DNA of 64,000 nucleotides from NCBI GenBank assembly GCA_008632985.1, contig QPGO01000197.1, forward strand, positions 1-64,000, given 5' to 3'. The stretch is from Psammoneis japonica. Its lineage: Eukaryota. The translations under genes and the position numbers were made by a program. How positions within the stretch are numbered: position 1 is the stretch's first letter; every line of letters begins with the position of its first letter. Below are positions 19,151 to 45,840 of the stretch, one piece after another. The notes under the pieces are model-generated. The model saw only the letters and a program-made list of their open reading frames with translations. It was not told the origin of the DNA and did no database searches.

Positions 19151-21589
19151 GAGCAAAATGCACATTTTGGCAACCTTTCATGTGTCATCATGTGAAATGC
19201 ACACTTGCAAAACAACACACAAAAGCAAGCACTTTGGTCTGACCTTGTTTGTGCCCCAAACTTTGCAAGCTGCAATCCCACAACACTGCCTGTCATCAAG
19301 GCCATCTCAAGCAAGTGGCCACCAAGATGCCAAGCACAGCAAAAAAAGGGGAGCAAGCAAGATGCTTTTTTGGCACAGTTTGGTGTCACAACACGCACTT
19401 GCAGCACAGTGCAAAATGGAAAACACAACAGCACAGTCTTTCATTGCCTCCCTGTCACAATCCCAGAATCCTGCCCACCATGAGTGCAGTGCAGTGGGGC
19501 TGTCTCAACCTGCTGCCAAGGAGACTGAGCACAGCAAGAAAGGCCTTGTGAGCACAATGCACACCATTTTGGCAAGGCACACAGTGTGCTGTGCTCCATC
19601 ACTGAGTGACACTTGCACCCCCACACAAACCATGCCACACATGATTGTTGCAAAATTGTGTGGAAACTGCCAGGTGTTGCACCATGTCATTGAAAGCAGC
19701 AAGCACAAGAAAGACATGACAGTGAGCAATGAGCTGAGTTGCATGCATGAGCTGACAATCAACTCAACTCAACAAACACAACACATGAAACAGAGCACCA
19801 GTTTTTGCATTGAGTTGAGACTCATCATTTCTGTTGGCACAAAATCAAAACCATGCTGAGCACTCTTGTGCAAGCACAAAGTGCGTTTTGCATCTTCTTG
19901 AGTCAAGCAAAACAGTCCTTGTGGTGACATCTCTCATTTTTCTGGGGTCCACAGCTTGTAAGTGACATGACAGAAATTGCGCCAAACTTCAGATGCTTGT
20001 TGTTCCTGCGAATGTAAGACTCTGCAGAGCCAAGTGTTTGGAAGTTTGAGAGAGCAAGAGCAAGAGAAATGGAAACATTCCATGATCTTAAAGCTCCCAG
20101 CCCATTGCTGTCTCAACACAAACAAACAGTGCAAACAAAACACACAGTTTTTGAAAAGCAGTGACGCCATTTCAAAAAACTCTTTTCAAAAACTCTTCTC
20201 ACTGTTTTTCCTGCAATGAAGAGCGGAGAGTCTCGTGGCTCTTTGCCTCTGGTTCTTTGGAGTCTCTCTCCATTTGCCTCAAGAATCATGCAGAACCTGC
20301 ACAAAATCCTGGCAGGGCAAAGAGAGATTCTCCCCACACATGAACAACACCTGCACTTTCTTCTTTCTTTGACCTGAGAGAATGAGAAGGCAGCAATTTT
20401 CCATGTTTGCAGCCAGACAAAAGGAAATGGAAAAAAGGAGTGGATGACGATGTTTGAGCATTGAAGCAGAAAACACATCCAGGGTCAAAAATGACAATCA
20501 GATTGGGTTGGGAATCTGCTCAACTCAAGCAGCTGCAGATGCAAAGACAGAAGACCCAGTGGCTGTTGTCCACAATGCCTTTGTCCTTTCTTTCCAACAA
20601 AAGAGAAAAAGAGGCCAGTCCTGAAGCCAAAAAAGAGAACACTGCACCCAATGATCAAGAGAGATGGGTGATGATCATGAGGGTGGAGCCAGCTGGTGAG
20701 GAGGACAGCGCTGCCTCTCTGGAGAGAGAGAGCAGCAAATGGAGGGCAAAGGATGCTCAGAGGGAGTCACCATCCTGTCACAGGTTGACCCCGATGCAAC
20801 ACCCAATGACTTCAATTCAGGTGCTGAGTGGCTCATTTGTGAGGCATGTGGCAAGACATGCAAGCAAGCTGAATGCTGGCACTCATCTGGCACCTGAATG
20901 GTGAAACATTGGATGGCTGAACTTGCTGGCAAGAGCGTTGTTGGTGCCAACCAGCACCCCACCCAACACAATGACACAATGCTCTGAACGGCTCCCAAGG
21001 GAAATGATTCATTGAGCTTGGGACATTGGCAGAGCAGCTTCATGGGATCAAGACATGGAAGTGGAACTCAGTCAGGTTTGTCGCGGTGTTCCAGATTGTC
21101 ATCTAAAACAGCGGGTGGGCTGCGGTGTGAAAGGAGCAAAGAAGGACATCAGAACCCCACTCAGCGCCAGACACATGGATGATTGGGAGATGTGGGTGAA
21201 CACAAAATGCTTCTTGAGTGTCTTCCAAAATGCAACTTGCAAGTGATCTCCCCAGCCCACTCGGAAGGACATGACAGGATTTGAGCAGGATTTGGGTGCG
21301 TGCGAAATGTCGCGCTGTTTAGTTCTCTTTAGTTCCGCGTGCACGCGTGCGATGCAGTTTGCTTTCGAGCCACTCGGCTCACAAGAACAATGACAGCAGC
21401 CCGATTGTGCCGACTCACACGTCTTTCGGCTCCTGCAACGGTCTCTGAGCGGAGACTCATCTGCCATTTGGACAGCAGCAAGGAGCCATTGTTTGAGTTC
21501 TTGCCATTTGCCTTCAATTTCTGTCAGATTAACAGTCTTGCTCATTGTCAACCCATTGAGCAACCGCCATCGTCGTCGTTGATTTACCG

Positions 21590-21920: not shown

Positions 21921-21921
21921 C

Positions 21922-22039
21922 GACGCTATTTCAATTCTGCGTGGACCTCCGTATATATTCTACGTACATCGGCAAGTCTAGACGCTATTTCAATTCTGCG
22001 TGGACCTCCGTATATATTCTACGTACATCGGCAAGTCTA
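21922..22039 (+). repeat. Two identical 59-bp tandem monomers at the putative LINE 5' end
   Basis: GACGCTATTTCAATTCTGCGTGGACCTCCGTATATATTCTACGTACATCGGCAAGTCTA x2 (21922-21980 and 21981-22039). Confidence 0.95.
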
Positions 22040-23202
22040 CGCGCATTCAATACCAAGCATCGGCAGGAATTTAACGTCACCGTCAAGTCTCCTTTACCGC
22101 TGGATATCTGGATTGATTATACTACCTATGATCGCTTAAGACATACATTCAACGGTTATATCCAAGTCTATCCTTGATCCTCATCCCTTTTTATACCCAT
22201 TCAACGGTTAACGGTCAAGAACCCTACATATTCATAGATCTTCGTTGCTGAAGACACACATATATATGTGTCTTCACGGCCAAGAACTTGAACCCACTCT
22301 TTAGACTGCGGCTTTGCTGCCACTCTACAAGCACACCGAGTCTATTGTACCTGATCTACCCCCGACCACTGGTGCTCTACAGTTCTACTAGGTCCACGAG
22401 GATGACTGTAAGAGCAAGTGGCCGTGGTTGCAGCCTGCGTTGGGGCGAGGGTGTTTTCCCGCGTTTGTTCGTTCGTCCACAGCACCTGACGCCTGCGTCA
22501 ACTGGCCAGCCTGATCGGGAAATCCAACCGACATAAAATAAGAACGGTTCGGGGGTCTTGTCCACCTCCAGTCAGCTTGCCTGCAGGGGTTTACAACCCG
22601 CCACTCCGCTCGCAAGCAACCCAAAGCGCCGCCAGCTGCGGGCTCGGACGTGCCGGCACAACTCTACGGACCGGATGGGAAGTTTAGCACTTAACAACAA
22701 ATGGGACAGCACAACCCGACGACTTCTGATTTTAAGATGGTCCAAGATTTCAAGTCAAGTCTGGCTCAAGTCAAGTCTTTTTCAAGCCAAGTTGCAAGTC
22801 AAAACTCCGAGTCAAGACCGCGCTCTAGATTGGCTCCTGTCTTTTGTTTCTACTGCACCGTCCTCCGTCATGGTTCTCACGTGACAGCAACAAACCGAAA
22901 GCTTCAAATACATTCTAGGCACTGTGCTCAATCAAGACGATGACAGCCCTCTTTGTTCTGCTCTGTCCATCAACGGGATTGAATCGTGTGAGGAGTTGTT
23001 CACATTCTTGCCCACCCAAATTGACGCCCTCACTTGCAGAGACGGCGCCAAAGCAGCTCCTTTGCCAGGGACCTGCAGAAACCTCCTGGCAGCTTTGATC
23101 AGCTTCCACTTTGTCAAAGTTTGCAAATAATTCTGCGATTGCCAGTGTTGAACACACCCACGTGTTTTCAGTGCCAGGCTCCCCGTAGAACAGCCGACAA
23201 CC

Positions 23203-25056
23203 ATGGCGTCTCCTTCCGTCGTTGACGGCAGCCATGCCCCTCCTCCTGTCCACAACGCCACCATGGCAGATGACATTGCCGTCGATCAGACTTCTCTTAA
23301 GTCGTCTTCTAAACCAAAAGAGCGTCAGTTTGAAGAGATTGCTCTTCGCTTCAAAATTCGTGGCCCTGCAGCGACATGCAAGCCGATGACTCTTGTCACC
23401 GCCCATTTACAAGTCTTACAGCAGATTCTTTTCACGTGTCATAAAGACGTGCAAATCCTTGACAACCACAACAACCGAATCACGCAAATCAATGTGGCTG
23501 ATTGGATTTCCTCCCTTCAGCACGAATGTCACTTCGTCATCTCCACTGCTCGCAGTGGTGAAAAATGCCCGGTCACCCATCGCTTGTGTCATCGCATTCT
23601 TACAAAGTTGCCGCTTCGCGAAATTCGCTCTCATCCTCATGTTCAAAGCATTTTGGATCTGAATGACATGTGCATGAAACGACACACCTGGAATGAATCA
23701 GTGATTGACACGGCGACACTGGCCTGTTGCATTGCCACCGCTACGAAACATGCTCCAGTCGACGACGCTGCCAAAAAGTTTCTTGGAGATTTGGGTGAAT
23801 TCAAGACCAAGATGCCAAAGTTTCGTCTGGCACCTACGTCAATCCGAGCAGATAACAACAAACTTGCCACTCCCATTCGCACAACGACTTTTGCCATTGA
23901 GGTTCAAAATGATGAGTGTCGCACTGCCGGGAGAGTCTTGTTGCACGCATCTAACAAACTCCCGACCCATGTCGTGATGGCCAAGACCCGTCACCTCTCT
24001 CCCTTGGCCTTCTACAACGCTGTCAAAACTCAAGCCCGCCGCAATGAAAACACATGCATCGTCCCGCTCTTGCACACTTCCCCAGATGTGATGTTCTACT
24101 TCGAACAAAATGTTGGGGCCTTGAAAGGCGTGCAGGACATTTGCGCCTCTAACTCCGCCGACGGGAGGTGCAACATTCTCATCAATCGAGTGGCTTTCAA
24201 GACAGCACGTGCCGCAATTTCCACGTGTGTCATGAATCTCATTCCAGATCTGCCGGAAGAATCTTACCCGACTCCTCCCTTCCCAGATCATCCTCAAGTC
24301 TCAGGCGTTTTTGACAAACCGTCGGAGACCAGCAAATCCATCGTCTCTGCGAGCATTCGCAGTCTCGAATCCCCAACCTTTTTGGACGTTTCTCCTTTGA
24401 CAGACACTCATGCTCCCAGTGCGCATCATCACCCTCCATCGCAATCTCATCCTGGTCGCGGACATGCAGGACGAGGATTCCCCGGTCGAGGTCCTGCGCG
24501 AGGTTCTCCGGTTCCACCTCAGATCTTCACCCCCCTTTCCTCCCAATCTCCGTCGAAACTTGGTCACACTGGACACCCTGGCATGCCGTCTCCCCAATTG
24601 TCTCATGCTCAAGCTGCTCAATCTACGTCAAGTTCCTCTCTTGCTTCAGCTCAGATGGCGGAAGTGCAACAGACGTTATCTCAGATGCAACACAAGAACG
24701 ATCAGGCCCCAGCCGAACTCCGCCAACAGCATTCCAAGGATGTGGAAGCTTTGAATGACACATTCAACAAACAACACACTCAAGACATGGCCACACTTCA
24801 GTCACAATGCTCCCAGCAACTGGCCGCTGTGCAGGACCAAATGAACCAAATAGTTGAACTCCTTCAAGCAAGTCAACCGTCTCAGAGCTCAGCCAGAAAA
24901 CGCCCCAACCATGTGGAAACTCCCGAGCGCCCTGGGGATGACAAAGACAGGGAATCGGATTTTCAGGCAGGGGTTGGATCTCGCCGCCTCCACCCCCTCA
25001 AGAAATTGGGCGTCCTCCCAACATTGTTGCTCGGCTCCACTCACCTCTCACTTTAA
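23203..25056 (+). pseudogene. LINE ORF1 (gag-like; RG-rich segment and coiled coil)
   Basis: Lies upstream of ORF2. GRGHAGRGFPGRG segment and Q-rich coiled coil. Only 3 Tyr in 617 aa. Confidence 0.7.
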
Positions 25057-25168
25057 CTTCCATTTTTCATCGGACCTCTAGATGTCGGCCTTTCTCCTTT
25101 CAACCGAACCTCAAGTTAATGCAGTGCTCTAAGCCTCAGTCTTCTCTTCGGAGGAGCACGGCCCAACC

Positions 25169-28100
25169 ATGAGCAGTGCGATTTCGACTGATGATCCCTC
25201 TCTCACATGGCAGCAAATTCTCGACGGATGCAGCTGTCATCCTCCTGCTGATCGCCGGATCGATTTTTCTCGCCTCAAGATCAATGACCCTGTGGGCCAT
25301 GCACTTCGACCCAAGCTTCCGCATCATGCACGTCTGTGTGCCTTTGACGCCAATGGTTGCAAGTTCGACAAGCGCGGCGGGGACATAAATGAGCACTGTC
25401 AAATTGCTTCGGAAATCCAAGCCAACGTCATCGGCATCTCCGAAGTGTGTCTGGACACTGCCCAATTTGACATTCTCTCTGTTTGCCGTTCCACTGTCTC
25501 CAAATCTCTGCACCACGGGCGATCCACTTTCTCGACCAGCTCCACCACCTTCACTGCTCAACACAAACCAGGTGGTGCGGCTTTGTTGTCTTGCAATTCG
25601 ATGTCAGCACGTTTTCGGACTCAAGAATCAGACCCACTCGGTCAGTGGTCTATTCAAGTTTTCGACGGCAGGAACGGACGCCAAGTGATGTTCATCTCTT
25701 GCTGTCGAGTTTGCGCTAAAAACCAACAACACCCGGGGAAAACAACAGCTCATGCTCAGCAAATGTCTCTTCTCCGACAACAAGGCCGTCAGATCCTCGA
25801 CCCCAGGAAAGCCTTTTGCACCGACTTATCCCGTGTTTTGCAGGACTTTGTGGCAGAACCGAACAGGGAGGTGATCATCTTTGGCGATTTTAACACTGAT
25901 TTCAACTTCGACACAGACTCTTTGGCCACTGTTGCACAACGTTTTGATTTGTCCGACGTTCTGTTTAACATTGTGGGCGACAACGACTTCACTACATGCA
26001 CGAGGGGTTCTAAGCGCCTCGACCATGTGCTTGCCTCACCTGGTGCTCTCGCTGCGGCACGGTTCGGTGGATGCGAAGCTTTTGGTTACAGAGTTGCGTC
26101 TGATCATCGTGCTTGCTTTGTGGATTTTGACACGGTGGCCCTTTTTGGCAATCCCACCGTCGATCTACCCAAGGCATCGTTCCGGGATCTTCAGGCAACA
26201 TCCAAACCTCAGATCACCACTTGTCTTCAAGCCATCGGCCCTGTGATTCAGAGCCGCTCAGTGTTGGAGAGGTCGCGTCAGTCAATTGACCTCGAAACTC
26301 CGAATCATGCGTTGGCAGAATGCCTGGACCGTGATCTTACCCAGTTCTCCCTCGCTGCTGCCAAGAAATGCCGCTCTCACCGCGAACCAGACTGGTCGGC
26401 AGAACTGGCAGATTTGAGACATAGGGTGTGTATCTTTTCACGCCTCGCATCAATGATGCGGACAAAATTAGACTGTGTCTCACAGATTCGGTCGATTCGG
26501 GATAAACTCAGTGGATCCTTTTCCACTCCGGAGACTTTGCAAGAGTGCCAACAAGAGTTGCGTGCTGCTCAGGCAGACTGCAAGCGCTTGGCTGCCGACA
26601 GCGTGGTCCACCGTGAACGGGAGACATCAGAAAAGATGGCAGCACTCGATTTAGAAAACACCAAGGCTTCCCGCAAGCAGGCCACTACATTGCGTGACAT
26701 TCGCAAGGCAGAAGAAATGAAGAAATTGTTTGAGAAGATAGATTCTTGTCGCGCCCAGAAGGACACTGGCACACAGAGTGTACAAGTTCCTCGCAATCCC
26801 TCTGTTCCTCCGAAAGAATGTCAAGACTGGGTTGCCATCGATGCTCCGGAAGACGTGGCAACTGCTCTCCGTCAACGGAATCAGAAACACTTTGGTCAAG
26901 CACACGGCACACCCCCAACAGTCCCTCCACTGTCGGTGGACCTCGGTTGTGAAGGTGATGCGATTATGGCGGATCTCATTCTCAATGGCGAGTGTGACAC
27001 GTCTGCTTTGAATGAAGCAACAGCTCTTTTCATCAAACACTTACGACAACGGTCACCAGCGTCAGTGCCAAACCTCCTTTCTGCCTCAGACCTCGAAGGG
27101 AAAATAAAACGTTGGACAGAAACTGCCACTGCGTCCATGTGTTCTGGACTCCATCTCGGTCATTGGAAGGCAATGCATGCTCCTCATCGATTTTCTGAGG
27201 CTGCGGATTCAGAAGGCAGTCCCACTGTTGATCGTGAGGCCCTCGATGAAGTTCAACACACCCTCATTCAAATCAGGTTGAATTTGCTAAATTGCGCTCT
27301 CCGCTGGGGGTGTTCATTTCACCGTTGGCAAGATGTCGTAAATGTCATGACTTTCAAAGAGCCGGGCAACAACAAGATTCATCGTCTTTGAGTCATCCAC
27401 ACATGCGAAGCTGACTTTCAATTAATCTCGAGCGTCAAGTGGCGTGCTCCAGCTCAAAATGTGGAGCAACGTTGACCACACAATTCTGGGATCTACGGCA
27501 CTCACACTTTCTTAAATGCCAACACTCCCGTGTGCCTTGAAGAACTCATGCTGGAGATCAGCAGAGCTACACGCAAGTCTGCCATTCACAGTGATGACGG
27601 TTGCACTTCGTGCTGCGACAGAAATGTCCTTGCTTTGGTGGCAATTGAAAGCCGCAGCAACGGAATGCCCAAAGAAGTTGCCCAGGTTGCCAGTTCGACT
27701 CTTCACAAGGCTCGATGCTGGTTGCGTGTGGTGCTTGGCCTGTCTCAAGGTTCTCATTCCCATTCCGATGACTTTCCGATTTACGGTGCTGGACAGGGCA
27801 GTGGAAACTCCCCGTTCTACTGGAACCAAATCTGCAACAGTTTGTTTCAGATTTTCGATCAACGTGCACACGGTGCCCATTTCGAGACCCCTGACCGCTC
27901 TCTTTCTCTGCAGATGTTCAATCGTGGATGCGTGGATGACACATCCAAACAGGTGAACGCCTTTTGTGCGTCTCCTCAACCTTGCATTTTGGAGTTGGCT
28001 CTAAAGATGCAGGAGGATAATCAGCCATGGTGTGACCTTTTGAATGCAGCTGGACACGAGTTAGAACTGCCCAAGTGCTCCTTCCACGCAATCGAGTGGA

Positions 28101-31050
28101 TGTTCACAGATGACGGGGAACCACACCTACGACCATGCAATGAGGAGATCGACATTGAAATCTCTTCTGCTGACCGAACTGCGACACGGTCTAGCAAACA
28201 ACTGTCTGCTCATTCTGCTCACAAGACACTTGGTCATCACAAAGCTCCCGCAGGTGCGCAAAAGACTCAATGCACGGCCCTCAAACAGAAGAGCGATGGC
28301 ATTGCCTTGTTTCTTTGTTCTTGCCCCCTTGACAGACACGAGGCTTGGACCCATTGTTTTGCCTGCTGCCTGTCCTCGACTGCCTGCGTTCTCCCAAGTG
28401 CCCATTTCAAGGAGAAAGAGTTGTCAGAGGCACAAAGAAAGGCTGTGCGTGCGATTTTTGCCAAATGCGGATACAATCGAAATTCGAAACGAGATGTTCC
28501 ATTCGGACCACATTCCCCAGGAGGTGGCGGTTTCAGGTCCTTAGACATCGAACAAGGAGTTGCTCAAGTTCTACAGTTTCTTCGTCACTGGCGCGGGACA
28601 GGACAACCTCAAGCTCCATCTTGTGTTGCAGTGTCATGGATTCAGTTGCAGATCGGAGCGGGAGTCAGTTTTCTAAAAGACGTTCATGCCAAGTTGCCTC
28701 ATTCGGAATCACGCTGATTTGTGTCTCTCCAATCTTTCTTGGCAAGGATTGATGCTTCTGTTGACTGTGACGAGCCTGGCATCCTCCCGCTGCAGCGAGA
28801 CAACGACCAACGTGTCATGGACGTCGCACTTGAATCGGGCGCCTTCAGTGATCGGGAGATCAGGTGGGTCAACTGCTGTCGGTTGTGTCTCAACGCACTG
28901 ACACTGTCGGACATTGCTCTTCCAGATGGCCTCTCGCTTGACTCCTTTAAAGTCGACGGCCGATCGTCCCTTTTTAGCAGCCGCAGTGCTCTGAATCCCG
29001 TTGAACAACAACGCCCGTCTGCTCGAGCTTGGAAACAGTGGCGAAGAGCTTGTTCCTTGTTTTGCAAGGACGATTCCTTTGATCTCCGAGATCCCCCAGG
29101 TCAATGGCTCATGCCGGCCACGGAAATGCGAATGTCACACGTGGCATGCCATGAACCCTCCGAAGATCACTTGTGCATCCGTTCGGATGCTGGATTTCAA
29201 ATGTTTCCGGTGAAACACGGTTGTGCTGCCTCTGTTGCGGCCTTGGAAACTGTCCCAGATCTTTCCCCTGCGGCATCCCCGGTGCTTGTGGATGCCACCA
29301 GAAACGGTCATTGGCGAATTCGGTCTTCTGGTGCTCCAGTCTTCTTGCCAACTTTGCCTCCCGTCCCCAACGATTTTCTCTCTGTGCTGCAGTCTCTGTC
29401 TCATTGGGAATCGTCCCTGTTTGAGGAAATCACACTGCACCGGTCAACATTCGAAATCGCCGACATCTTTGCGACCCACCAAGCGTCAGCAGGTGGCAAC
29501 GGCTCGGTCCTTCAATTTCGAGGTGCCTTTGGTTGGATGATCACAATTGATGGGACACCTCTTGTGGATTGCGCAGGTCCGGTTTTCGGTTTTCGCCCAT
29601 CTTCTTGCCGAGCTGAAGCATGCGGCATGCTGTCCTTTCTCCGTTTCCTGATCTGATTGACAGAATGTTGTTCTTCATCTTTAAGAGGCGCTGACTTGCA
29701 TTGCGACAATTCTTCACTCATTCGCAACATCTCGAATTTCCAGGTGATTCCTTCTCCTCCCGAAGCAGAGGACACTCAAGGAGCCGATGACTTTCAATGG
29801 TGGCATCACATTGCTAACACCCTCTCACCAGACTGGGACATTGTCAATGAAATTTTTCACTCCCTACGACAAGCATCCGAGGTCAGCACTGACAAACTGC
29901 AGTGTCCTGTCGTAGAGATTCATTGGGTGAAAGGTCACCAAGATGATGCTCTTCCTGTGGAGTCTTTGTCCTTGGCGGCGAAGTTGAACATGCGGGCTGA
30001 CAGGTTGGCAGGACAATTCCAAGGCCAATTTTCTGGCCATGCTCTTGAAGCCCCCCGCGTGCCTCACTGTCGAGCAAATCTGATCCTCCAAGGAGCCACC
30101 GTCTCGTCCAAATGCAAGCCGGTCCTGCGACATCAGGCATCAAGTTCCGCGCTAGTCGACTGCATGAAAGAGAAATGCAGTTGGTCCGATGAAGTCTACG
30201 CATCGATCGATTGGGACGTTCGCGCGAAGCTGATGTCACGGAATGTTCGTCGAAAAGTTGGCACTGTCAAGCTGGTTCAAGATCTTCTGCCCACTGACAA
30301 AATCGTGCACAGATGCAATCCGACACGTCCGGACTGTTGCACACACTGTCAGGACCCCATGGAAGACAGAGACCACATTCTCCGTTGTCCTCACAACGAG
30401 GCCTGGCGCAGACAATTTTTACAAGGCCTGCGTAAGAAGTGCGACGACATTCACACGTCTCCCTCCTTACGAGACTTGATCATTTCGGCTGTTGAAGCAT
30501 GGTTTCGAGACAAGCTTCTTTGCTCTGAGCAATTTCATCACAGCGTCGTCCCCGTTTTCCATTCCCAAGGAGAAATGGGTTGGCGTCAGTTGTTCAATGG
30601 TCGTTTTTCGGTCCAATGGAGTACGACACAAACCTCATGTCTTACGTCGAGCGGCATTTGTCGGACCCTTTTGGACCAACAGAAACGTTTGGATTGGGCG
30701 GCAACCATTGGGAACTTTGTTTGGCAGTGGTGGGACCTGTGGGATGCTCACAATGACGCTGCACACGGACACGATTCGGAAACTAGAAAGTCCTCTCAAA
30801 GGAGAGACGCGGAAGCAGAGGTCAAGGCGATTTATTCTCGCACGGATGATTGCCTTGCGAGAGACAAGGCGCTCTTGTTGGATTCGGTGGAAGATCATTT
30901 GACGCATTCAACTCATCGGATTCGCAACTGGCTGGCAATGTTCAAACCAGTCTTTAAATCGAGCATGCGGGAAGCCAAACGGTTGGCTGCACGAGGCACC
31001 AGAACCATTGCAAGTTGCTTTGGCGCGGCGTCACCCTCGGGTGATGCCGA
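25169..31050 (+). pseudogene. LINE ORF2: apurinic endonuclease, reverse transcriptase, RNase H
   Basis: ORFs 25169, 27530, 28721 and 29657 share one frame, broken by TGA at 27389, 27473, 28715 and 29654. Motifs GISE, GDFN, RLDH, SDHR (APE); GAGQGSGNSP, CVDD (RT); SCRAEACG, CDN, WVKGHQD, NMRADRLA (RNase H); CTHC..HILRC. Confidence 0.9.
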
Positions 31051-31295
31051 TCTCGGCCAATTGCTGTTTGCTCCTGCCGCACTAATTGTGTGCTGGGAGT
31101 GTGGGTTGGCTTGTTGCCAGAGTTGCAGGGTGGAAGCACAGCAGCACTTAAAATGTGGAAGTTTGGTTTTGTTTTGTCAAAGTTTGCAACAGTGATGATG
31201 TGGCCAATGAACCCCAGTTGCTCACACCCAAGGAATTTCGCGACTGCCGCCTTGGTCCGGACTGCTTGACCTCTCTAGCCACTGGCACAGCACCC

Positions 31296-31691
31296 GACGT
31301 GTTCCAGCTCTAGGTGGGACCTCGCACTGCTGAACTGTGACACAATTGTTTTTTGTCATCCATCGCATGTTTCGCGCGCACATTTCTGCGTGTTCTAACA
31401 TAAAAAATTGTTCCACACTGCCTGTTTTGCGAAGCCAAAGGCTTTCTGTTCTCTGCACTTGTGTCAATAAAAATGCGCTGGGCACATTCTTTAATGTCTA
31501 AAGAACACACCCGGGCACACTGTAAAGAATGCACTTCAAGTGTGGAGGAGGAGATGCGTTCGCAAAATTGCCTCTTTTTCTGTTGGCGATCATTCATGTG
31601 TCCATTGCTTGACAATTTTACTGCGGAGCTCGCACGCAGAATTCTGCGGGCCCAATGTCACAAAAAGTCCCACCTGGGACTGGAACCCGTC
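31296..31691. mobile_element. MITE (family A), 396 bp, TpA-mutated copy
   Basis: Same length as and colinear with 12971-13366. Ends GACGTGTTCCAG / CTGGAACCCGTC. 4-bp TSD ACCC on both sides. Confidence 0.9.
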
Positions 31692-32184
31692 ACCCTCCGC
31701 ACCTGTGCCGAGTCCCTTGCCTTCCAAACCAGGTGAACCCAGCGCCATTTTGACGCCAGCCTTGCACTGTGTCGCCACTCAGGTGTCCCCAAGAAGTGGT
31801 GTCAGTCACGCCCCGCATGTCTTGACCAACCCGCCTGCAAACAAACTCGGCCCAGTGCAGGATTGCAGCCCTTGCACAGGCCCGCACTTCGAAACCAATT
31901 GGGACCACAGCCCTTGTGCAGGCCGCACTTCAAAGCCAGTTGGGACACTCCACCCATGGCTTCCAAAGCTGCAGCCTTTGCACCCCGCAAACCACGTGCT
32001 GCCAACCTCCACGTGTCAACCGCTGTCACCCTTCACAACCTTCGTTTGGGAAGTGATGGAGATGACAACTTGCTTCTTGCATCTCCTGATGGGGAGCCTC
32101 CCTTTCCCATCATTGAATCTGTTCACAACAGTTCAACCGGTTCATCAGATGGGGAGTTCAGGACATCCAAGCAGCTTTGTTGTC

Positions 32185-32660
32185 TTTGGATCCTCCAAGC
32201 ATCGCACCACGAGACGAGGCCTCCTGATTGGATGCCCCAAGTCTCGCACCTTGAGACCAGGCCTCCTGACTGGATGCCTCAAGTCTCGTGCCTCGAGACT
32301 GGGCCTCCTGGTTGGATGCCCCAAGTCTCGTACCTCAAGACCAGGCCTCCTGACTGGATGCCCCAAGTCTCGTGCCTTGAGACCAGGCCTCCAGATTGGA
32401 TCCCTCAAGTCTTGTGCCACAAGACTCGGCCTCCTGATTGGATCCCTGAAGACTCGTGTCACAAGACTGGCAAGTCCTGGATGTCCCAAGTCTCGCACCT
32501 CGAGACTGGGCCTCCGGATTGGATCCCTCAAGCCTTGCGCCACGAGACTCGGCCTCCCAATTGGATCCCCCAAGTCTCGCACCTCAAGACTTGGCCTCCT
32601 GGTTGGATCCCCGAAGACTCGTGTCACAAGACTGGCAAGTCCTTTTGGATTCCAGAAGTC
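32185..32660 (+). repeat. Tandem array of about 11 units of 42 bp (RPPDW[MI]PQVSxLET-like)
   Basis: 42-nt period with one 39-nt unit, visible in the DNA and in ORF 31863-32756. Confidence 0.9.
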
Positions 32661-33158
32661 TTGCAGCATGGGGCTGGTTGCCCCAATCAGACATCTGCAG
32701 TCTTGCACCACAAGATGTCTTGCTCCCAATCCGATCCCCAAAGGCTTGCACCTTGAGACTCGTTCCTCCAATTGGATCAGTCTCTCAGGAGATGCAGCTG
32801 AGCTTGCAATTGGATTGGTGGAACACAAGACCACCGCTTGTGCCTTTGAACTCATGCTTGCTCTGTTCCCCGAGTCGTGCAAACGCCATGCCACCCTGCT
32901 TGAGCACTGCTCTGTTTTTCTAGCAGCAGCCCAGTGTGGCAACCGTTCCAAGAACCAACAGATGGCTGTCATTCTTTGCGACCTTTGCTGAGGGAGTGAA
33001 GGTGATGTTAACTTGTTTGCACTGTCCTGCGATGTTGCCCCGCTGTTCAACATTGTCAACCAGACCAAGCTTTGCTCCTTCCATTGCAAGTGCGGATTGC
33101 GTCGCTCAGCAAAAAAGCAGAGAGGGATCAAGAGAGGAAGAAGCAATGTAATTCAGAA

Positions 33159-33947
33159 ATGAAGGAAAACAATGTTGACAAAACTTGTGGCGTGAACATC
33201 AGCACAATCCCCGATTCCATAAAAAACACGAAGTTCAAGGACAGAGAAACAGAGATCAACGTGGCGACAGCAGCAGCGACAATCCCTGCAAACCAGGTGG
33301 AGGAAGAGAGGGCCTGCAACAATGCCACAAGCCACGAGAACCAGCCTTTGCTTCTTGAGAACATGGAAGAAAACAACGACACGATCTCGCATGACCAACA
33401 TGCTGAATTTTCTGCTCCAAAACCAAAACACGAAACACCCTGCATCATGATGCATTGCCGAATGGGACACGATGACTCGATTGTCATTTTGAACGACAGC
33501 ACGGCACAAGATGAGGATGAACATTCACCACAAGTGCGGCAACTCTGGGAGGAACTGGAACAAGCAAGTCGCATCATGGTTGGTTGGTGTGCGGCAATGC
33601 ACCTTGTTGGCTTCATGATCATGTTGCGAAGTGGCGTTAGCATGCACTGCTGCACCGACAGTTGCAGCCTGAGAGGGCCCAATCTTGGCGGGTCCAACAA
33701 CAGCGACATGCTCATGACAATCTGTCGCTTGCTCCTTGTCCTTGTAGCTGCACACTGCTTTCAGTTTGCTTTGCTTTTGGTGAGGCTATGTCGAGAGCAG
33801 TCAGACTTGTTTCTGCAGCTGTCCAGACGAGTTGGATGGACTCCAATGAGGATGGATCGACATTCGACAAATGCTCTCTTGAGGAGTGTGATTTCAGATT
33901 CTGAGGAGGATTCGGAACACGAAGATTTGAATGAAAGTTTGATTTGA
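33159..33947 (+). pseudogene. TpA-mutated paralog of the adjacent membrane-protein gene
   Basis: Aligns with 34394-35294. Tyr codons changed to His/Cys, premature TGA at 33945, internal deletion, and original TAA stop changed to CAA. Confidence 0.85.
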
Positions 33948-34393
33948 CGAGAAGATCCGAGGAATGGCGCTGCACATGATCCAACAGTGCTGGAGTCAAT
34001 CTCAGAGGCACAACATTTCAGAGTGCTGCACATGCTGAAGGGATTTTTTACATGCACTTCCAAAGATTGTAATAGAGAACAGTCAAGAAACCCATGTTTC
34101 CAATCGTGAGGAATCATCACGACACCGAATGAGCGTCGCCGCCACTCTTCCTTGTGTGTGTTCGAGATCTTCCCAAAAATTGCAGAGACATGCGCAGAAG
34201 AACCAGCTCAAAAGGATCAATTTGAGCATCTTTTTTTCCCTCCCACATTGCACCGTGTATCTAGCTGTTATTGTCCACATCAGTGTGCACCACGGAAGTA
34301 GCATGTTGTGGTGGTGGGTCTGGCTATCTTCTTGCACATCCTAATTGATAAAGTCCTGTGTGCCAGTTCTCTGCTTGTTTGTGCGAAGTTCGT

Positions 34394-35294
34394 GATGACG
34401 GGAGACGTGCAGAAAAATGTTGACACAAATTGTGGCGCGAACATCAACACAAATCCGCGATTCCCAAAACGTGAAGAGGATACAAGTATAAAGAAACACA
34501 TCTTCATCAAGATGGCGACAGCAGCGGCGATAATCCTTAAAAGCCAGGAGGAAATGAGGGCCGTCAACAATGCCACAAGCCACGAGAACCAGCCTTCGTT
34601 TCTTGAAGCTATGGAAGAAAACAACGACACTCCCTCGCACGACCAACATGCTGCTCTAAACTCAAAACGCGAACCACCCTCCATCATGATGCACTGCCGA
34701 ATGGGACACGGCTACGACTCGATTGTCATCTTAAACGATAGCACGGCACAAGACGAGGATGGATATTCGCCACATGTACGGCGACTCTTGGACGAACTGG
34801 AACAAGCAAGTCGCGTCATGGCGGGTTTCTGTGCAGCAACGTACCTTGTTGGCTTTATGATAAGGTTGGGTGTTGGCATTAGCATGTACTGCTTTGGCGA
34901 TATTTGTCTAAGAGGACTCAGTCTTGGCCGGTCCAACAACAATGACTTGCTCATGATGATCTATCTCGTGCTCCTTGTCCTTGTAGCCGTGTGCTGCTTT
35001 CAGTTTGCTTTGCTTTTGGTGAGGCTTTACCGAGAGCAGCCAGACTTGTTTCCACAATTTTCCAGACGAGGTGGATGGACTCAAACAAGGATGGATCGAC
35101 ATTCCGCCAACACTCTCTTGAAGAACATGATTGCAGATTTGAACGAGTTGCGCAATTCCATTTGTTGTTTGGTAAAGTCTTCGGAGGAGGATTCGGAACA
35201 GGAAGATTTGAATGAAAGCTTGATTGAACGAGAAGATCCGAGTATTGCCGCTACACTTGAGCCCACGATACAAGAGTCGATCTCAGAGTCATAA
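34394..35294 (+). CDS. Hypothetical membrane protein with two hydrophobic segments
   Basis: Open frame 34308-35294 with normal TpA/Tyr content and two predicted TM stretches. Start uncertain. Confidence 0.65.
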
Positions 35295-35510
35295 CATTTG
35301 ACAGTACTACACATACTGAAGGTATGTTTTGCATACACACCTCCAAAAAAGTAATAGTTAACAGTTAAGAAACCTGTGTTTCCAATCGTAAGGAATCACC
35401 ACGATACCGAGCGAGTTCAAAGGTAAGAGAGTTGCCGCCGCCACTCTTCCTTGCATGCGCTCAAGATTTTCCTGAGCCTCGTATATGCGAGAGTTACTAC
35501 AACATTGTCT

Positions 35511-36944
35511 CTATTTCCAATCGTGAGGAATCATCAAGGAGCCATCGTCTCCCAAGTGACAAAACTGACCACTCCCCACAATTCCGAGAGAGTTGCCAGC
35601 CAAGAGTAGACGCCACTCGCTCTTGTGCATTCGAAATCTCCGTAGAGACTCTACAAATTGTTCGAGTTGCACCATTTTGCTTCGATGGACACGTTGTAAA
35701 CCAAACTCTTGTTGCACTTGGTTCTCTATATATTTTGCGGTTTCATTCTGACGACGTCGTTCGACCAAATCGTGTCGTGCTCTTGGCGCCAATCGAGACA
35801 GTGCCACTAAAATGGCTTGACTTGTCATGCTGGCACCCACCCGTACATGTCCCTCCTTTGTTAAAATGGCACGCCGACAAGCTTGTGGCGATTCCACCAT
35901 GGCAATGACCGGTTCCAATGCAATCGCAGTAGTCGTTGTTTCATCTTCTTGTTCATTGATGTCTATTTGTGTCTTGAGATTCATTAATAAATCAAAGTAT
36001 TCGCGTGACGAACACGAGTGTCCCTTGCAAAAGTTCACATTGAGGCTGTGCGCCACTCGAGAAACAGCGTCGTGTAGTTGAGCTTGAATTTCTTTATTTC
36101 GTTCTAAAGCGTGTGGTGTCACACTTTGAAAGGCATCCAGCCATTGCAAAGGCGTACAGGCGGGATTTAGATAGAGAATACCCCCGTACACGTCAAGACG
36201 CTCATCTTCCTTGGAGGAAAACACGAGTCGAAGTGGATAAAAGCTCTTTACCAAAAACTTGTCTTGAAACTCTTGATGCAAATCCATTAAAGACTTTAGC
36301 AATTTCGCCAACGACTCGCTGGACCATCCCAGCTTGGTCCCGTCCACGGCCAAGAATTTATAGCGTTGACGAACCACCATGGCGGCCGCCATGACGTCCA
36401 TACGAGACTGTTGTCGTTGCTTAATCTCCTTCTTGTTGAGACTATGCAAAAAGGATTGCAAATCTCGTCCCTGATTGGAATGCAAATCGTATTGATGATC
36501 AATTGTAGTATTGTTGTTTGGATCATGCGAAGCCCAATGAATGTCGGAATTTTTGCTTTCTGGAGAAGGAACACCACGTTTTCGTGGCTTTACTTTGGGC
36601 GGTGCTGGCAAGAGCACAAAACCTGTTTTCGAAAGGGCGTTTGCCATGGATTGCAACACGGCCATGACGTTCTGATTTAGATTCAAGGAATGCTCGTGAA
36701 GCGATCCATCCTTGTGTTCCAATAGATAGGATAGAGAGGGATAGTGCCGTGGTGGCATGCAGGGCTCGCCTTCGCCCAGCGTGTAGGATAGAAAATCAGG
36801 TTTTCCCATGCGATCGGAAACATGCTGCAGAAGTTCGTGTTGCTGTTGTCGAATGCGAGCTGAATGAGAACGAAATCTATCAGGATGAGTTCTTAAGAGG
36901 AACGCTCGGCGCAATCTCGACACATAGATAGATGGAGTCGACAT
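35511..36944 (-). CDS. TCAIM: TCAIM-like protein (DUF4460/DUF4461; J-like HPD motif)
   Basis: 477-aa ORF with N-terminal LRRAFLLRTHPDRF and C-terminal DGSLMIPHDWK, as in the T-cell activation inhibitor mitochondrial family. Confidence 0.7.
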   Translation of the reverse strand: MSTPSIYVSRLRRAFLLRTHPDRFRSHSARIRQQQHELLQHVSDRMGKPDFLSYTLGEGEPCMPPRHYPSLSYLLEHKDGSLHEHSLNLNQNVMAVLQSMANALSKTGFVLLPAPPKVKPRKRGVPSPESKNSDIHWASHDPNNNTTIDHQYDLHSNQGRDLQSFLHSLNKKEIKQRQQSRMDVMAAAMVVRQRYKFLAVDGTKLGWSSESLAKLLKSLMDLHQEFQDKFLVKSFYPLRLVFSSKEDERLDVYGGILYLNPACTPLQWLDAFQSVTPHALERNKEIQAQLHDAVSRVAHSLNVNFCKGHSCSSREYFDLLMNLKTQIDINEQEDETTTTAIALEPVIAMVESPQACRRAILTKEGHVRVGASMTSQAILVALSRLAPRARHDLVERRRQNETAKYIENQVQQEFGLQRVHRSKMVQLEQFVESLRRFRMHKSEWRLLLAGNSLGIVGSGQFCHLGDDGSLMIPHDWK

Positions 36945-41521: not shown

Positions 41522-42804
41522 TGTTTATTGGCTGCCGGGGAGTTGGAGAAGTCAGTACGCGTGTGAAAACAGACCTTGTCATGCTCTACGTACAAAAGAG
41601 TGATGCGAGATTGCTTGATGTCATGGCTTTTTTGGAAAGATCGCCTCATGCGCATGTCGCGGGAAGCGGCCTTTCACCTTTCAGAAATATGCCGCCTCAA
41701 ACGTACCAGATCCAACGTAAGTCTACAGTAAGTAGAATGTTACGACATACATACAACAAAAGAAACCCGGATTGGCCCATACGTACTCGCCCCCAGTCAC
41801 CAGCGCGCGTGAGAAGCAAGCAGGCTCAAACGTGCCATTCTCAAATTTTCTCGGTTTGGGTTGCAACACACACTTCGCTGCTCTGCCGAACAAAAAGAAC
41901 AAATATATCGAGACGCGCACATGGTCGATCGAATCTCTTGCCATTCATAAAATCTGCTTGTGGATTGTCGTACAAAGCGCGATTGCCAAAGGTGCGTAAA
42001 ATTTCGTCCAGTCTCGCCAGATTCACGAATGATGAGACGTGTTTGTTCCGTGTTCGCGAAGCACCGCTTGTGCTGCGACGATTTCTTTCAGCTCCATGAA
42101 AAACTACACATCATACACATAACTTCCTGTTGCTTCATTTAATCTATTCGCTTTGTTGCCGATTGGATCGTTGCCTCATTCATTCACGACACGATCCTGG
42201 ATCGTTCAACACGCGGCGATTTTTTCGTGAAAATCTTCAACGCGACAAAACCGGCGCGCACCCAATCAAATCGTGACACCCACCTCCTACGTGGCGATTT
42301 TTCTCAATTTTTGAAACTTCAGACACGACTTGGACGGTGTTTCTGTGATTTTAGTCTTGTTTTTGAAAATTTGGACATATCGAAGGGGACTCTTTGTCTT
42401 TATTACATGCAAACATGTATAATGATAATTGGTTGACAACCCAAAACTTGTTAAATGCGATACGTCATCGCTTCTGCGATCTTGTTCAGCTTGCAGTTTT
42501 GATTTTTTTGGATTGGAGTTTTTGCGTGATTTCCGGAATTTCGTTTGGTTTTGCCGCCTTTTTCGACCGATTACGTCACTCGATGTGATTCGCTACTTGA
42601 CGTCATTTGTTTCCGTTCAATATATATTTTATTTATTCACTTTCTGAAAATCGTCATGCTTACTTATGGCTTTCGATGTCGCGCTTTTTTATTCTTGCAG
42701 ACCAAAACAGAACAATTTCGCCTCCACATCAGCCCAGAACAGAACGACGACACGGTGATTATTTTCTTTTCTCATCAACATTCTCATGCTACCAAGGGTT
42801 CACC

Positions 42805-45800: not shown

Positions 45801-45840
45801 TGGTTACGGTGTTCCCGGTTCAGCTCGAAAGCTTGTTTAG
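42805..45840 (+). CDS. ATG1: Autophagy Ser/Thr kinase ATG1/ULK
   Basis: GSGSFATVY, VAIK, HRDIKPQN, DFGFAR, TLCGSPLYMAPE. GT-AG intron 43515-43598 joins HHR-YDAKADLWS. AIM-like DDSGFVMV. C-terminal MIT-like helices. Confidence 0.92.

What the first reader, a model, noticed from the sequence alone, without database searches (positions are those of the whole stretch)
33140..35480. Tandem host-gene duplicate: one copy TpA-mutated, the other spared
Upstream copy A (about 33140-34180) compared with downstream copy B (about 34400-35480): ttaaacgatagc to ttgaacgacagc; catgtacgg to caagtgcgg; cgtacctt to tgcacctt; atgtactgc to atgcactgc; ctaagagg to ctgagagg; atctatc to atctgtc; cataacattt to cacaacattt (stop lost); agtactacacatactgaa to agtgctgcacatgctgaa; gttaagaa to gtcaagaa. 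TTAG and GTAG sites survive. So the process affects non-TE sequence. Unlike RIP, which mutates both partners, only the copy adjoining the TE block is hit. That suggests spreading from silenced chromatin, or selection preserving copy B.
Basis: seen in the sequence. Interest (0 to 1): 0.8.

Follow-up and report, generated by a model that had tools for sequence, protein, structure and literature searches.

The report
TpA-erasing hypermutation hits one duplicate
In a diatom genome, one of two neighbouring copies of a small gene has had nearly all its T-A steps rewritten to C-A or T-G, like the transposon-rich DNA beside it, which points to a position-guided DNA-mutating process so far described only in one unrelated alga.

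Summary
Copies at 33165-34173 (U) and 34412-35472 (D) align over 983 columns at 83.7% identity. U has 7 TpA and D has 39. Of D's 34 aligned TpA, 30 are changed in U, against 255 of 929 other dinucleotides (p=6e-13). Twenty-four are CpA/TpG (12+12), with one in reverse. All 5 aligned Tyr codons of D are His/Cys in U.

The damaged copy is the upstream one, next to the TE block.

This is the reverse of RIP. About half the window is kb-scale blocks with TpA O/E 0.00-0.2 and CpA/TpG excess. U is the last kilobase of one such block, which starts with a LINE-like element. The block ends within about 150 bp of U's 3' end. D keeps the genome-typical TpA density (3.7%), including in non-coding DNA.

The host is a diatom. 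TpA-to-TpG/CpA hypermutation of integrated foreign DNA was reported in 2026 for the chlorarachniophyte Bigelowiella natans (bioRxiv 10.64898/2026.01.13.699255). Seven literature searches found no diatom report.

"Host gene" is unproven, because U/D is an orphan ORF. No outgroup was available, so polarity is inferred (about 0.8).

The parts
33165..34173 (+).
   Evidence: It aligns with 34412-35472 over 983 columns at 83.7% identity. It has 7 TpA, O/E 0.106.
33159..33947 (+). ORF in U, 262 aa, zero tyrosine, ends at TGA
   Evidence: Other frames here are also open (195 and 123 aa on the minus strand), as expected where TAA and TAG cannot occur.
34174..34411 (.). Spacer between the copies, with near-normal TpA density
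   Evidence: It has 7 TpA in 238 bp (2.9%, O/E 0.42).
34105..34258 (.). Interval that contains the right-hand edge of the TpA-poor domain
   Evidence: The last TpA of D that is lost in U maps to about 34105 (D 35405). TpA are dense again from 34258.
34412..35472 (+).
   Evidence: It has 39 TpA (3.68%, O/E 0.52). The normal regions have 3.74%.
34395..35294 (+). ORF in D, 299 aa, 6 Tyr, TAA stop; an orphan
   Evidence: No homologue was found and no Pfam family.
22401..34200 (.). TpA-poor, CpG-normal domain 'L', of which U is the last kilobase
   Evidence: 200-bp bins hold 0-5 TpA. 1-kb TpA O/E is 0.04-0.24 and CpG O/E mostly 0.75-1.0.
25133..27388 (+). Open frame with an AP-endonuclease domain, part of a LINE-like element (open frames 23152-31192)
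   Evidence: Pfam Exo_endo_phos E=4.9e-8, with weak Exo_endo_phos_2 (0.0076). A weak zf-RVT hit (0.039) lies in 29657-31192. Summed read depth is 220-600 against about 52 for single copy. No RVT_1 hit.
31296..31691 (.). Copy of a very high-copy repeat inside L, TpA-depleted relative to its paralogue at 12971-13366
   Evidence: 384 aligned columns at 78.6% identity. TA in the 12971 copy is CA/TG here at 17 sites, with 3 in reverse. Summed depth is about 86,000.
32186..32633 (.). 42-bp (84/126-bp) tandem array between the LINE-like element and U
   Evidence: TRF gives period 42, 10.5 copies, 77% matches.
35511..36944 (-). DUF4461 gene, a conserved diatom host gene just downstream of D in normal-composition DNA
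   Evidence: Pfam DUF4461 E=1.3e-22. 144 homologues were found, and the named ones are all diatoms.
13401..21400 (.). Largest block nearly free of TpA and poor in CpG (Z3). Similar blocks lie at 1601-3400, 5201-9400, 49401-51400 and 58801-60600.
   Evidence: It has 16 TpA in 8000 bp. CpG O/E is 0.11-0.28 and CA/TG O/E 1.5-2.2. Depth is 126-235.

Best explanation
U and D are an old tandem duplicate (dS about 0.4) of an orphan ORF in a diatom nuclear genome. After the duplication, U came to lie inside a domain subject to TpA-targeted A:T-to-G:C hypermutation. In this process TpA becomes TpG on one strand or CpA on the other. It acts on both DNA strands, works by position within a kb-scale domain, and nearly saturates: 88% of TpA sites in U are gone. 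The domain starts with a LINE-like element and ends within about 150 bp of U's 3' end. D, 240 bp further on and next to a conserved host gene, lies outside the domain and is untouched. The process is not triggered by the duplication itself, since one partner is spared. It prefers TpA with a 5' purine (ATA > GTA > CTA > TTA, equivalently TAT > TAC > TAG > TAA).

Shown here: the signature, its strand symmetry, its block structure, its edge, and its sequence context.

Inferred:
- Polarity, that U lost TpA (about 0.8).
- That it is the same kind of process as in Bigelowiella natans, where mutation-accumulation lines showed the direction directly.
- The chemistry. The most likely route is deamination of adenine to inosine in DNA by a TadA/ADAT-like enzyme guided by a chromatin or RNA signal (about 0.4). 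Modification of the thymine at TpA would leave the same footprint.
For: (1) 30 of 34 aligned TpA of D are changed in U, against 255 of 929 other dinucleotides (p=6e-13). Twenty-four go to CA/TG, split 12:12, with 1 in reverse.

(2) All 5 aligned Tyr codons of D are His (3) or Cys (2) in U, and U's ORF has 0 Tyr in 262 aa. ORFs in the depleted blocks have 0-0.3% Tyr, against 2.27% elsewhere.

(3) D's TpA density is 3.68%, against 3.74% for the window's normal regions. It also falls in the O/E range of 170 1-kb windows from 28 diatom-like metagenome loci (0.39-1.05, none below 0.2). U's O/E of 0.106 matches the depleted blocks. In this window 16 of 64 1-kb windows have TpA O/E of 0.1 or less.

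(4) If D had instead gained its TpA neutrally, about 8 CA/TG-to-TA changes are expected and 24 are seen (Poisson 4e-6). Even if all divergence is put on D, 16 are expected (p=0.037).

(5) D keeps TpA in non-coding DNA: 12 in 178 bp, against 3 in U's homologous 184 bp.

(6) CpG differences point the same way: 15 sites with D=CG and U=CA/TG, against 5 in reverse (p=0.04).

(7) An independent repeat pair shows the same asymmetry. The copy inside the domain has CA/TG where its paralogue has TA at 17 sites, against 3 in reverse.

(8) Of the 40 differences to other genomic copies that read laying displayed (out of 1181), 6 are window CA/TG against TA in the other copy, 1 is window TT against TA in the other copy, and 1 is window TA against CA in the other copy.

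(9) The graded context is seen in two independent block classes. Relative to normal DNA, ATA is 0.106 in L and 0.006 in Z, GTA 0.187 and 0.028, CTA 0.36 and 0.086, TTA 0.42 and 0.157.

(10) The B. natans preprint reports 230 of 231 de novo mutations in two integrated viral regions as A-to-G or T-to-C, all on TpA. It also reports 124 genomic clusters depleted in TpA and enriched in CpA+TpG, with RT and endonuclease domains enriched among low-TpA CDS (Results read).
Against: No outgroup exists for the ORF. In the only stretch with a third sequence, a 22-nt block shared with the 3' end of the DUF4461 gene, U equals the gene at 22 of 22 positions. There D carries the derived TG-to-TA change, so at least one of the 24 sites is a gain in D.

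The LINE-like element's TpA poverty appears to be shared by its other genomic copies. Only 2 of the 12 displayed differences in L involve TpA. Part of the 'domain' may therefore have arrived already TpA-poor, and local action is demonstrated only for about 31296-34105.

L is not CpG-depleted, so a link to cytosine-methylated chromatin is not evident.

Four TpA survive in U in contexts (TTAG, GTAG, GTAA, ATAG) where one strand should be susceptible.

The baseline for the context analysis is mostly coding DNA.

The runs laid on the window come from one sample, which may be the source of the assembly. They are not independent confirmation.
Confidence: 0.72

Rival explanations
1. Reverse polarity. 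The common ancestor was already TpA-poor (for example, part of a hypermutated element). D later regained TpA, either by ordinary C-to-T mutation at CpA/TpG or by a RIP-like CpA-to-TpA process. U merely stayed as it was.
For: Seen from U, 24 of 186 CA/TG sites (12.9%) are TA in D. That is only about 1.5 times the 8.6% baseline C/T difference. At one site with a third sequence, D is the derived state (TG to TA).
Against: Expected neutral gains are about 8, against 24 seen (P=4e-6). D sits at the genome-typical TpA density (3.68% against 3.74%) rather than part-way towards it. No window in the 64 kb shows TpA excess: the highest TpA/ApT is 0.94 and typical values are 0.5, so no RIP-like signature exists here. 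CpG asymmetry (15 against 5) marks U as the decayed copy. A zero-Tyr ancestral protein would be required.
Confidence: 0.08
2. Both copies are, or were, exposed to the TpA process, and purifying selection on a functional D removed mutated alleles. U was free to decay. The asymmetry would then reflect selection, not targeting by position.
For: dN/dS between the copies is 0.5, so some constraint has acted on at least one lineage. D has the longer ORF.
Against: D retains TpA at normal or higher density where protein selection cannot act. Its 3' non-coding 178 bp holds 12 TpA (O/E 0.83) and the U-D spacer holds 7 in 238 bp. Differences are spread almost evenly over codon positions (41, 52, 62). The edge of depletion coincides with the edge of a 12-kb TpA-poor domain.
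Confidence: 0.07
3. U is not a resident duplicate hit in place. It belongs to a mobile unit (for example, sequence carried along with the LINE-like element or the high-copy repeat), acquired its TpA-poor state elsewhere, and then landed beside D.
For: U directly follows a LINE-like element, a high-copy repeat fragment and a tandem array. The LINE family seems TpA-poor in all copies.
Against: Summed read depth over U (78-86) is like that over D (90). It is far below the LINE-like part (220-600) or the repeat (about 86,000). U and D are collinear, in the same orientation and 240 bp apart. Both carry the same tail with the 22-nt block also found at the adjacent DUF4461 gene's 3' end. That fits a local tandem duplication.
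Confidence: 0.05
4. Technical artefact. A base modification at TpA in repeat DNA made the basecaller or assembler write CA or TG, so the TpA are really there.
For: The effect is block-wise and context-specific, as modification-driven miscalls can be. The library types of the runs are not on record.
Against: Contigs built from the reads of run X1, at k-mer depth about 50-150, lie on the depleted blocks at 96-98% identity. Examples are 389 nt on 17761-18146 with 6 differences, and 521 nt on 26858-27378 with 11. Of the 12 displayed differences in L, only 2 involve TpA. An artefact would make TpA the main class of difference. The same signature was measured as real de novo mutation in another alga with Illumina data.
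Confidence: 0.04

Closest known systems
TpA-specific hypermutation of integrated NCLDV and virophage DNA in Bigelowiella natans (Mettrop et al., bioRxiv 10.64898/2026.01.13.699255; abstract, Results and Discussion read, supplements closed)
   Same: The footprint is the same: TpA to TpG or CpA on either strand. The kb-scale clusters of TpA depletion with CpA+TpG enrichment are the same. So is the association with TE and viral sequences (endonuclease/RT domains) and with unannotated ORFs. The process is regional rather than repeat-triggered (their NCLDV region is single copy).
   Different: The host here is a diatom (Stramenopila), not a chlorarachniophyte (Rhizaria). Depletion here is far deeper: 0-4 TpA per kb, against 3.3% TpA in their NCLDV region. 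Here a low-copy, non-viral ORF with an undamaged twin 240 bp away gives an internal control and a mapped edge. A 5' neighbour hierarchy and a partial decoupling from CpG decay are seen here and are not discussed there (0 occurrences of 'CpG' and 'trinucleotide'). No mutation-rate measurement exists here.
Repeat-induced point mutation (RIP) of fungi
   Same: It is a transition-only, dinucleotide-specific mutational scar on repeated or TE DNA that ruins coding capacity, and it can leak into neighbouring sequence.
   Different: RIP changes CpA to TpA, creating TpA and lowering GC. Here TpA is destroyed and GC is unchanged (0.48-0.50 in blocks). RIP hits both members of a duplication, and here one is spared. 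RIP is fungal and premeiotic, and the host here is a diatom.
Deaminase editing of retroelements and viruses in animals (APOBEC3 C-to-U on cDNA; ADAR A-to-I on dsRNA)
   Same: It is a hypermutation with a nearest-neighbour preference directed at selfish elements. ADAR and TadA/ADAT act on A preceded by U (recalled, and noted in the preprint's Discussion).
   Different: Those footprints are strand-asymmetric and enter the genome only through reverse transcription. Here CA and TG products are equal (12:12 in U; 972 against 867 in L), and a DNA-level tandem duplicate is affected.
CpG decay of cytosine-methylated transposons (diatom TE methylation; PMC9998398, seen only as a search listing with the start of its abstract)
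   Same: The Z blocks have CpG O/E of 0.1-0.3 with CA/TG excess. U shows a weak CpG loss (15 against 5).
   Different: CpG decay cannot remove TpA. The 12-kb domain holding U is TpA-poor while its CpG O/E is about normal, so the two processes are separable.

Membership tests
TpA-targeted A:T-to-G:C hypermutation of foreign or silent DNA (Bigelowiella natans type) | Changes fall on TpA and yield TpG or CpA, on both strands | tested here: met
   24 of the 30 changed TpA sites are CA (12) or TG (12), with 1 in reverse. Outside TA and CG contexts, AT/GC differences are symmetric at 22 against 23.
TpA-targeted A:T-to-G:C hypermutation of foreign or silent DNA (Bigelowiella natans type) | Clusters of at least 3 consecutive 1-kb windows with rho(TpA) of 0.43 or less and rho(CpA+TpG) of 1.52 or more (the preprint's cut-offs) | tested here: met
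   Windows 14001-21000 have TpA O/E 0.00-0.05 and CA and TG O/E 1.5-2.2. The same holds for 6001-9000. 16 of 64 windows have TpA O/E of 0.1 or less. My O/E was computed per dinucleotide, not as their pooled rho.
TpA-targeted A:T-to-G:C hypermutation of foreign or silent DNA (Bigelowiella natans type) | Targets are integrated viruses, transposons or other foreign DNA | tested here: inconclusive
   The L block holds an AP-endonuclease domain (E=4.9e-8) with weak endonuclease-RT and zf-RVT hits. Blocks are multi-copy by depth. However, none of the 16 ORFs tested from the Z blocks (proteins 7-21, plus 16364-17248) gave a significant Pfam hit; the best was E=0.08. U itself is a low-copy orphan ORF.
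TpA-targeted A:T-to-G:C hypermutation of foreign or silent DNA (Bigelowiella natans type) | Directly measured, roughly 1000-fold raised de novo mutation rate in the region | not testable with these tools
   This needs mutation-accumulation lines or population resequencing of this diatom.
TpA-targeted A:T-to-G:C hypermutation of foreign or silent DNA (Bigelowiella natans type) | Candidate DNA adenine deaminase (ADAT2-like) in the genome | not tested
   No whole genome is held for this window.
Fungal RIP | CpA-to-TpA transitions giving TpA excess (high TpA/ApT, low (CpA+TpG)/(ApC+GpT); index definitions recalled) | tested here: not met
   In the blocks, TpA/ApT is 0.00-0.3 and (CA+TG)/(AC+GT) is 1.5-2.25. 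This is the opposite direction.
Fungal RIP | Both copies of a duplication are mutated | tested here: not met
   U has 7 TpA and D has 39. D is at the genome-typical density.
RNA-level A-to-I hyperediting fixed by retrotransposition | A-to-G on the transcribed strand only, and only in retro-copied sequence | tested here: not met
   CA and TG products are 12:12 in U, and CA is 972 against TG 867 in L. U/D is a collinear tandem DNA duplicate.
GC-biased gene conversion | All weak-to-strong changes favoured regardless of neighbour, with raised GC | tested here: not met
   The asymmetry is confined to TA (and, in the opposite sense, CG). Other contexts give 22 against 23. Block GC is 0.476-0.503, like the rest of the window.

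The most novel reading that the evidence does not exclude
Diatoms have a chromatin- or RNA-guided enzyme that edits adenine (or thymine) at TpA directly in double-stranded nuclear DNA. It prefers purine-T-A. It erases every TpA, and hence every Tyr codon and every TAA/TAG stop, from whatever lies inside a marked domain. It acts by position, not by repeat homology, and its edges are sharper than 150 bp. If it shares ancestry with the Bigelowiella process, this would be an ancient SAR-wide genome defence and a natural dsDNA A-to-G base editor.
Probability: 0.3. Interest if true: 0.85.

Novelty: new member of a known kind. Interest (0 to 1): 0.62.

Why it matters
Diatoms are major primary producers with tractable model species. 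If TpA-erasing hypermutation works in diatoms as well as in a chlorarachniophyte, it is not a one-species curiosity. It would be a second eukaryotic mutational genome defence alongside fungal RIP, with the opposite chemistry (A:T to G:C).

The U/D pair is a rare internal control. It offers the same sequence 240 bp apart, one copy erased and one intact. This shows that the process follows position rather than duplication, and it places a domain edge within about 150 bp. That edge could be compared directly with chromatin, small-RNA and methylation maps.

There are practical consequences too. Such blocks produce long spurious ORFs in all frames and tyrosine-free 'proteins', which will mislead gene finders. 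TE annotation by homology fails in them: none of the 16 ORFs tested from the Z blocks gave a significant Pfam hit. The enzyme behind the process would also be of interest as a natural DNA adenine editor.

Tried and rejected
- Whole genome: none is held. The genome-wide paralogue test and a deaminase search were therefore impossible.
- Outgroup or orthologue for U/D: no hit in the word-indexed search (164-524 aa only), none among 1.84 billion representatives, and no Atlas hit. tblastn of U and D against 28 metagenome loci around DUF4461 relatives gave nothing below E=1.
- Homologues of the LINE-like ORF, wanted to polarise Tyr positions: none at E<=1e-5 (413-1316 aa only).
- Three-way alignment of the U and D tails with the DUF4461 3' end. 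Only a 22-nt block and some short patches align. There is one informative TpA site in each direction, too few to decide polarity.
- Rfam on the whole window: 0 matches.
- Relaxed Pfam on 22 open frames: no RVT_1, and nothing significant for any of the 15 frames taken from the Z blocks.
- Sequencing runs: no RNA holder is listed, so expression of U against D could not be assessed. Run X2 covers D far more deeply than its neighbours, but its kind is only guessed ('DNA?'). I draw no conclusion from it.
The 1023-nt U-like contig of X2 could not be read out.
- Relatives' loci: 0 of 170 1-kb windows had TpA O/E below 0.2. These are gene-rich neighbourhoods, so this gives a baseline only. It is not a test of whether other diatoms have the process.
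- Earlier findings of this scan: nothing on this genome or on look-alike sequence. The word search returned only unrelated phage cases.
- Literature: seven searches found no report of TpA hypermutation in diatoms. PMC9258296 was checked (passages) and is irrelevant. PMC6604790, the diatom mutation-rate paper, has 0 occurrences of 'TpA' in the listing and was not read.
- Considered and rejected: RIP, gBGC, and ADAR-type editing fixed through retrotransposition (see membership tests).
Full report
**1. The observation.**
The two copies exist. That is 83.7% identity, with 97 transitions and 63 transversions. In the window's self-BLAST this is the longest of 6 repeat pairs of at least 150 bp.

Both copies carry an open frame: 33159-33947 (262 aa) and 34395-35294 (299 aa). 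In each pair the TA-containing string lies in the downstream copy and the CA/TG string in the upstream copy.

U has 7 TpA in 1009 bp and D has 39 in 1061 bp. Of the 34 aligned TpA of D, 30 are not TpA in U, against 255 of 929 for all other dinucleotides (Fisher p=6e-13). Twenty-four are CpA (12) or TpG (12), and the reverse configuration occurs once (p=1.5e-6). Outside TA and CG contexts, A/T versus G/C differences are symmetric, 22 against 23. The effect is thus specific to this dinucleotide and far above background divergence.

**2. The phenomenon is window-wide and is the reverse of RIP.**
TpA O/E is 0.34 for the whole window. The 1-kb values fall into three classes:
- Ordinary DNA, with TpA O/E about 0.45-0.85 and CpG about 0.85-1.1.
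- Blocks almost free of TpA (0-4 per kb, O/E 0.00-0.06). These are also CpG-poor (0.1-0.4) and rich in CpA/TpG (1.5-2.2).
- A 12-kb stretch (about 22401-34200) that is TpA-poor (0.04-0.24) but has near-normal CpG.

At 200-bp resolution the blocks have sharp edges. They lie at 1601-3400, 5201-9400, 13401-21400, 49401-51400 and 58801-60600, plus 22401-34200.

Sixteen of 64 1-kb windows have TpA O/E of 0.1 or less. For comparison, 0 of 170 1-kb windows from 28 metagenome loci around homologues of the neighbouring DUF4461 gene fall below 0.2 (range 0.39-1.05). No part of the window has a TpA excess (TpA/ApT at most 0.94), so nothing resembles RIP.

Because Tyr is encoded only by TAT and TAC, open frames in the blocks hold 0-0.3% Tyr. 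Elsewhere the figure is 2.27%. His and Cys are raised in the blocks.

**3. Where U sits.**
U is the last kilobase of the 22401-34200 stretch. That stretch contains, in order:
- a run of long open frames on the + strand (23152-31192). One has an AP-endonuclease domain (E=4.9e-8). There are weak endonuclease-RT and zf-RVT hits but no RVT_1 hit, so 'LINE-like' is a partly supported label;
- a fragment of a very high-copy repeat (31296-31691);
- a 42-bp tandem array (32186-32633);
- U.

The last TpA of D that is lost in U maps to about 34105. From 34258 onward TpA are dense again. The 238-bp spacer holds 7 TpA, and D has 3.68% TpA against 3.74% for the window's normal regions.

Summed read depth is 78-90 over U and D and about 52 over single-copy flanks. 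It is 220-600 over the LINE-like part and about 86,000 over the repeat fragment. U is therefore not part of an amplified element.

**4. Polarity.**
No outgroup could be found. The D protein has no homologue and no Pfam family. The inference that U lost its TpA rests on six points:
- (a) All 5 aligned Tyr codons of D are His (3) or Cys (2) in U, and U encodes no Tyr at all.
- (b) D's TpA density equals the genomic norm and U's equals that of the blocks.
- (c) If D had gained TpA by ordinary C-to-T change, about 8 events are expected from the 8.6% baseline, and 24 are seen (P=4e-6). Even with all divergence placed on D, 16 are expected (P=0.037).
- (d) CpG sites, whose direction of decay is known, are also preferentially lost in U, 15 against 5 (p=0.04).
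- (e) An independent pair behaves the same way. The repeat copy inside the stretch (31296-31691) has CA/TG at 17 sites where its paralogue at 12971-13366 has TA, against 3 in reverse.
- (f) Among the 40 differences to other genomic copies that read laying displayed (of 1181), 6 are window CA/TG against TA in the other copy, 1 is window TT against TA in the other copy, and 1 is window TA against CA in the other copy.

Evidence on the other side is as follows. In the only segment with a third sequence, a 22-nt block shared by both tails and the 3' end of the DUF4461 gene, U is identical to the gene and D carries a TG-to-TA change. Nearby, one site shows the opposite: U=C while D and the gene have T. 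Some of the 24 sites must therefore be ordinary gains in D, as the neutral expectation of about 8 also implies.

I put loss in U at about 0.8.

**5. Selection versus position.**
dN/dS between the copies is 0.5 (dS 0.40, dN 0.20). Differences are spread 41, 52 and 62 over codon positions, so constraint is weak. D retains TpA where protein selection cannot act: 12 in its 178-bp 3' non-coding part, against 3 in U's homologous 184 bp. This favours a positional (regional) process over 'selection preserving B'.

Openness of U's frame is not evidence of function, because other frames there are open too.

**6. Properties of the process.**
It is strand-symmetric: 12 CA against 12 TG in U, and 972 CA against 867 TG in the 10.7-kb block. 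This argues for action on DNA, or on both strands, rather than editing of one transcript.

It has a 5' neighbour hierarchy, seen independently in the moderately and the extremely depleted blocks. Relative to normal DNA:

| Trinucleotide | Moderately depleted (L) | Extremely depleted (Z) |
|---|---|---|
| ATA | 0.106 | 0.006 |
| GTA | 0.187 | 0.028 |
| CTA | 0.36 | 0.086 |
| TTA | 0.42 | 0.157 |

At tetranucleotide level ATAT, ATAC, GTAC and ATAG vanish, while TTAA, CTAA and CTAG persist longest.

The process is separable from CpG decay, because the block holding U is TpA-poor with normal CpG.

It is not instantaneous. TpA-rich islands made of the very high-copy element (21400-22400 and 13000-13400) sit between depleted blocks.

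One caveat applies to the LINE-like element. Few of the displayed differences to its other copies involve TpA (2 of 12). The family may be TpA-poor as a whole, and in-place action is demonstrated only for about 31296-34105.

**7. Host and prior knowledge.**
The adjacent DUF4461 protein has 144 homologues. All the named ones are diatoms (Nitzschia, Cylindrotheca, Pseudo-nitzschia, Fistulifera, Conticribra; 37-40% identity), and the best unnamed hit is 58% identical. The Atlas agrees. The window is therefore from a diatom without a close sequenced relative in these libraries.

A 2026 preprint on Bigelowiella natans (bioRxiv 10.64898/2026.01.13.699255; I read the abstract, Results and Discussion, and its supplements are closed) reports the following:
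- In mutation-accumulation lines, 231 of 302 nuclear point mutations fall in two integrated viral regions.
- 230 of those are A-to-G or T-to-C, all on TpA, at about 6e-7 per site per generation.
- There are 124 genomic clusters depleted in TpA and enriched in CpA+TpG.
- RT and endonuclease domains are enriched among low-TpA CDS.
- An ADAT2-like deaminase is proposed.

That is the same footprint. It supplies direct evidence for the direction TA to CA/TG in that species. The preprint does not mention diatoms, CpG or trinucleotide context.

Seven full-text searches found no diatom report.

**8. Mechanism, with its status.**
- Shown: the TpA-to-CpA/TpG footprint, its symmetry, its context, its block structure, and an edge between U and D.
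- Inferred: a targeted enzymatic process acting on nuclear DNA within marked domains (TE, foreign or silent DNA), which reached U because of where U lies.
- Most likely chemistry (about 0.4): adenine deamination to inosine by a TadA/ADAT-like enzyme. From recall, the natural substrate of these enzymes is A34 preceded by the invariant U33, which would fit a T-A requirement. Oxidation or other modification of the T of TpA would give the same footprint and cannot be excluded.
- What marks the domain is unknown. Cytosine methylation is not an obvious candidate for the block that holds U.

**9. Verdict.**
This is a new member of a recently described kind of system, in a different major lineage. It comes with an unusually clean internal control and added detail on context and boundaries. 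Interest 0.62.

Noticed in passing
window 21300-22400, 31296-31691, 12971-13366: These are parts of a very high-copy element. Summed contig depth is about 86,000-136,000, against about 52 for single copy, and read contigs join 31523 to 21270. The copies at 21400-22400 and 13000-13400 are TpA-rich islands between depleted blocks. The fragment at 31296-31691 is depleted. No Rfam or Pfam identity was found.
   Followed up: partly
window 34097-34118, 35378-35399, 35514-35535: A 22-nt block at the 3' end of the DUF4461 gene (its last codons, minus strand) recurs in the tails of both U (22/22) and D (20/22), with further patchy similarity. The duplicated unit seems to include a piece of the neighbouring host gene's end.
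   Followed up: partly
window 33111-34091 (run X2, record 10): A 1023-nt contig of run X2 lies on U with 68 differences, at depth 14.5. X2 covers D at depth 200-345 and most of the rest of the stretch not at all. It may be a second haplotype or a third paralogue of U. Its letters could not be read out.
   Followed up: no
window 34487, 35243, 35323 (D) versus the homologous U sites: Three GTAT sites of D are GGA(C/A/T) in U. These are T-to-G transversions at TpA rather than the usual transition. This may be a minor second outcome of the same lesion, or chance.
   Followed up: no
window 22401-33100 versus 13401-21400: TpA loss and CpG loss are decoupled. The LINE-like block has CpG O/E 0.75-1.0 with TpA O/E 0.07-0.24. 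The Z blocks have both near zero. Yet 8 of the 12 displayed differences between this LINE-like copy and other copies are window CA/TG against CG in the other copy.
   Followed up: partly
window 31956-33053: Three overlapping open frames of 266-311 aa on both strands cross the 42-bp tandem array. This is an example of the spurious long ORFs produced where TAA and TAG cannot occur.
   Followed up: partly
window 42676-45840: Two adjacent open frames lie here, and the second has an ATG1-like MIT domain (E=5e-6, just under Pfam's cut-off). This is probably one gene with a short intron, and an ordinary host gene in normal-composition DNA.
   Followed up: no
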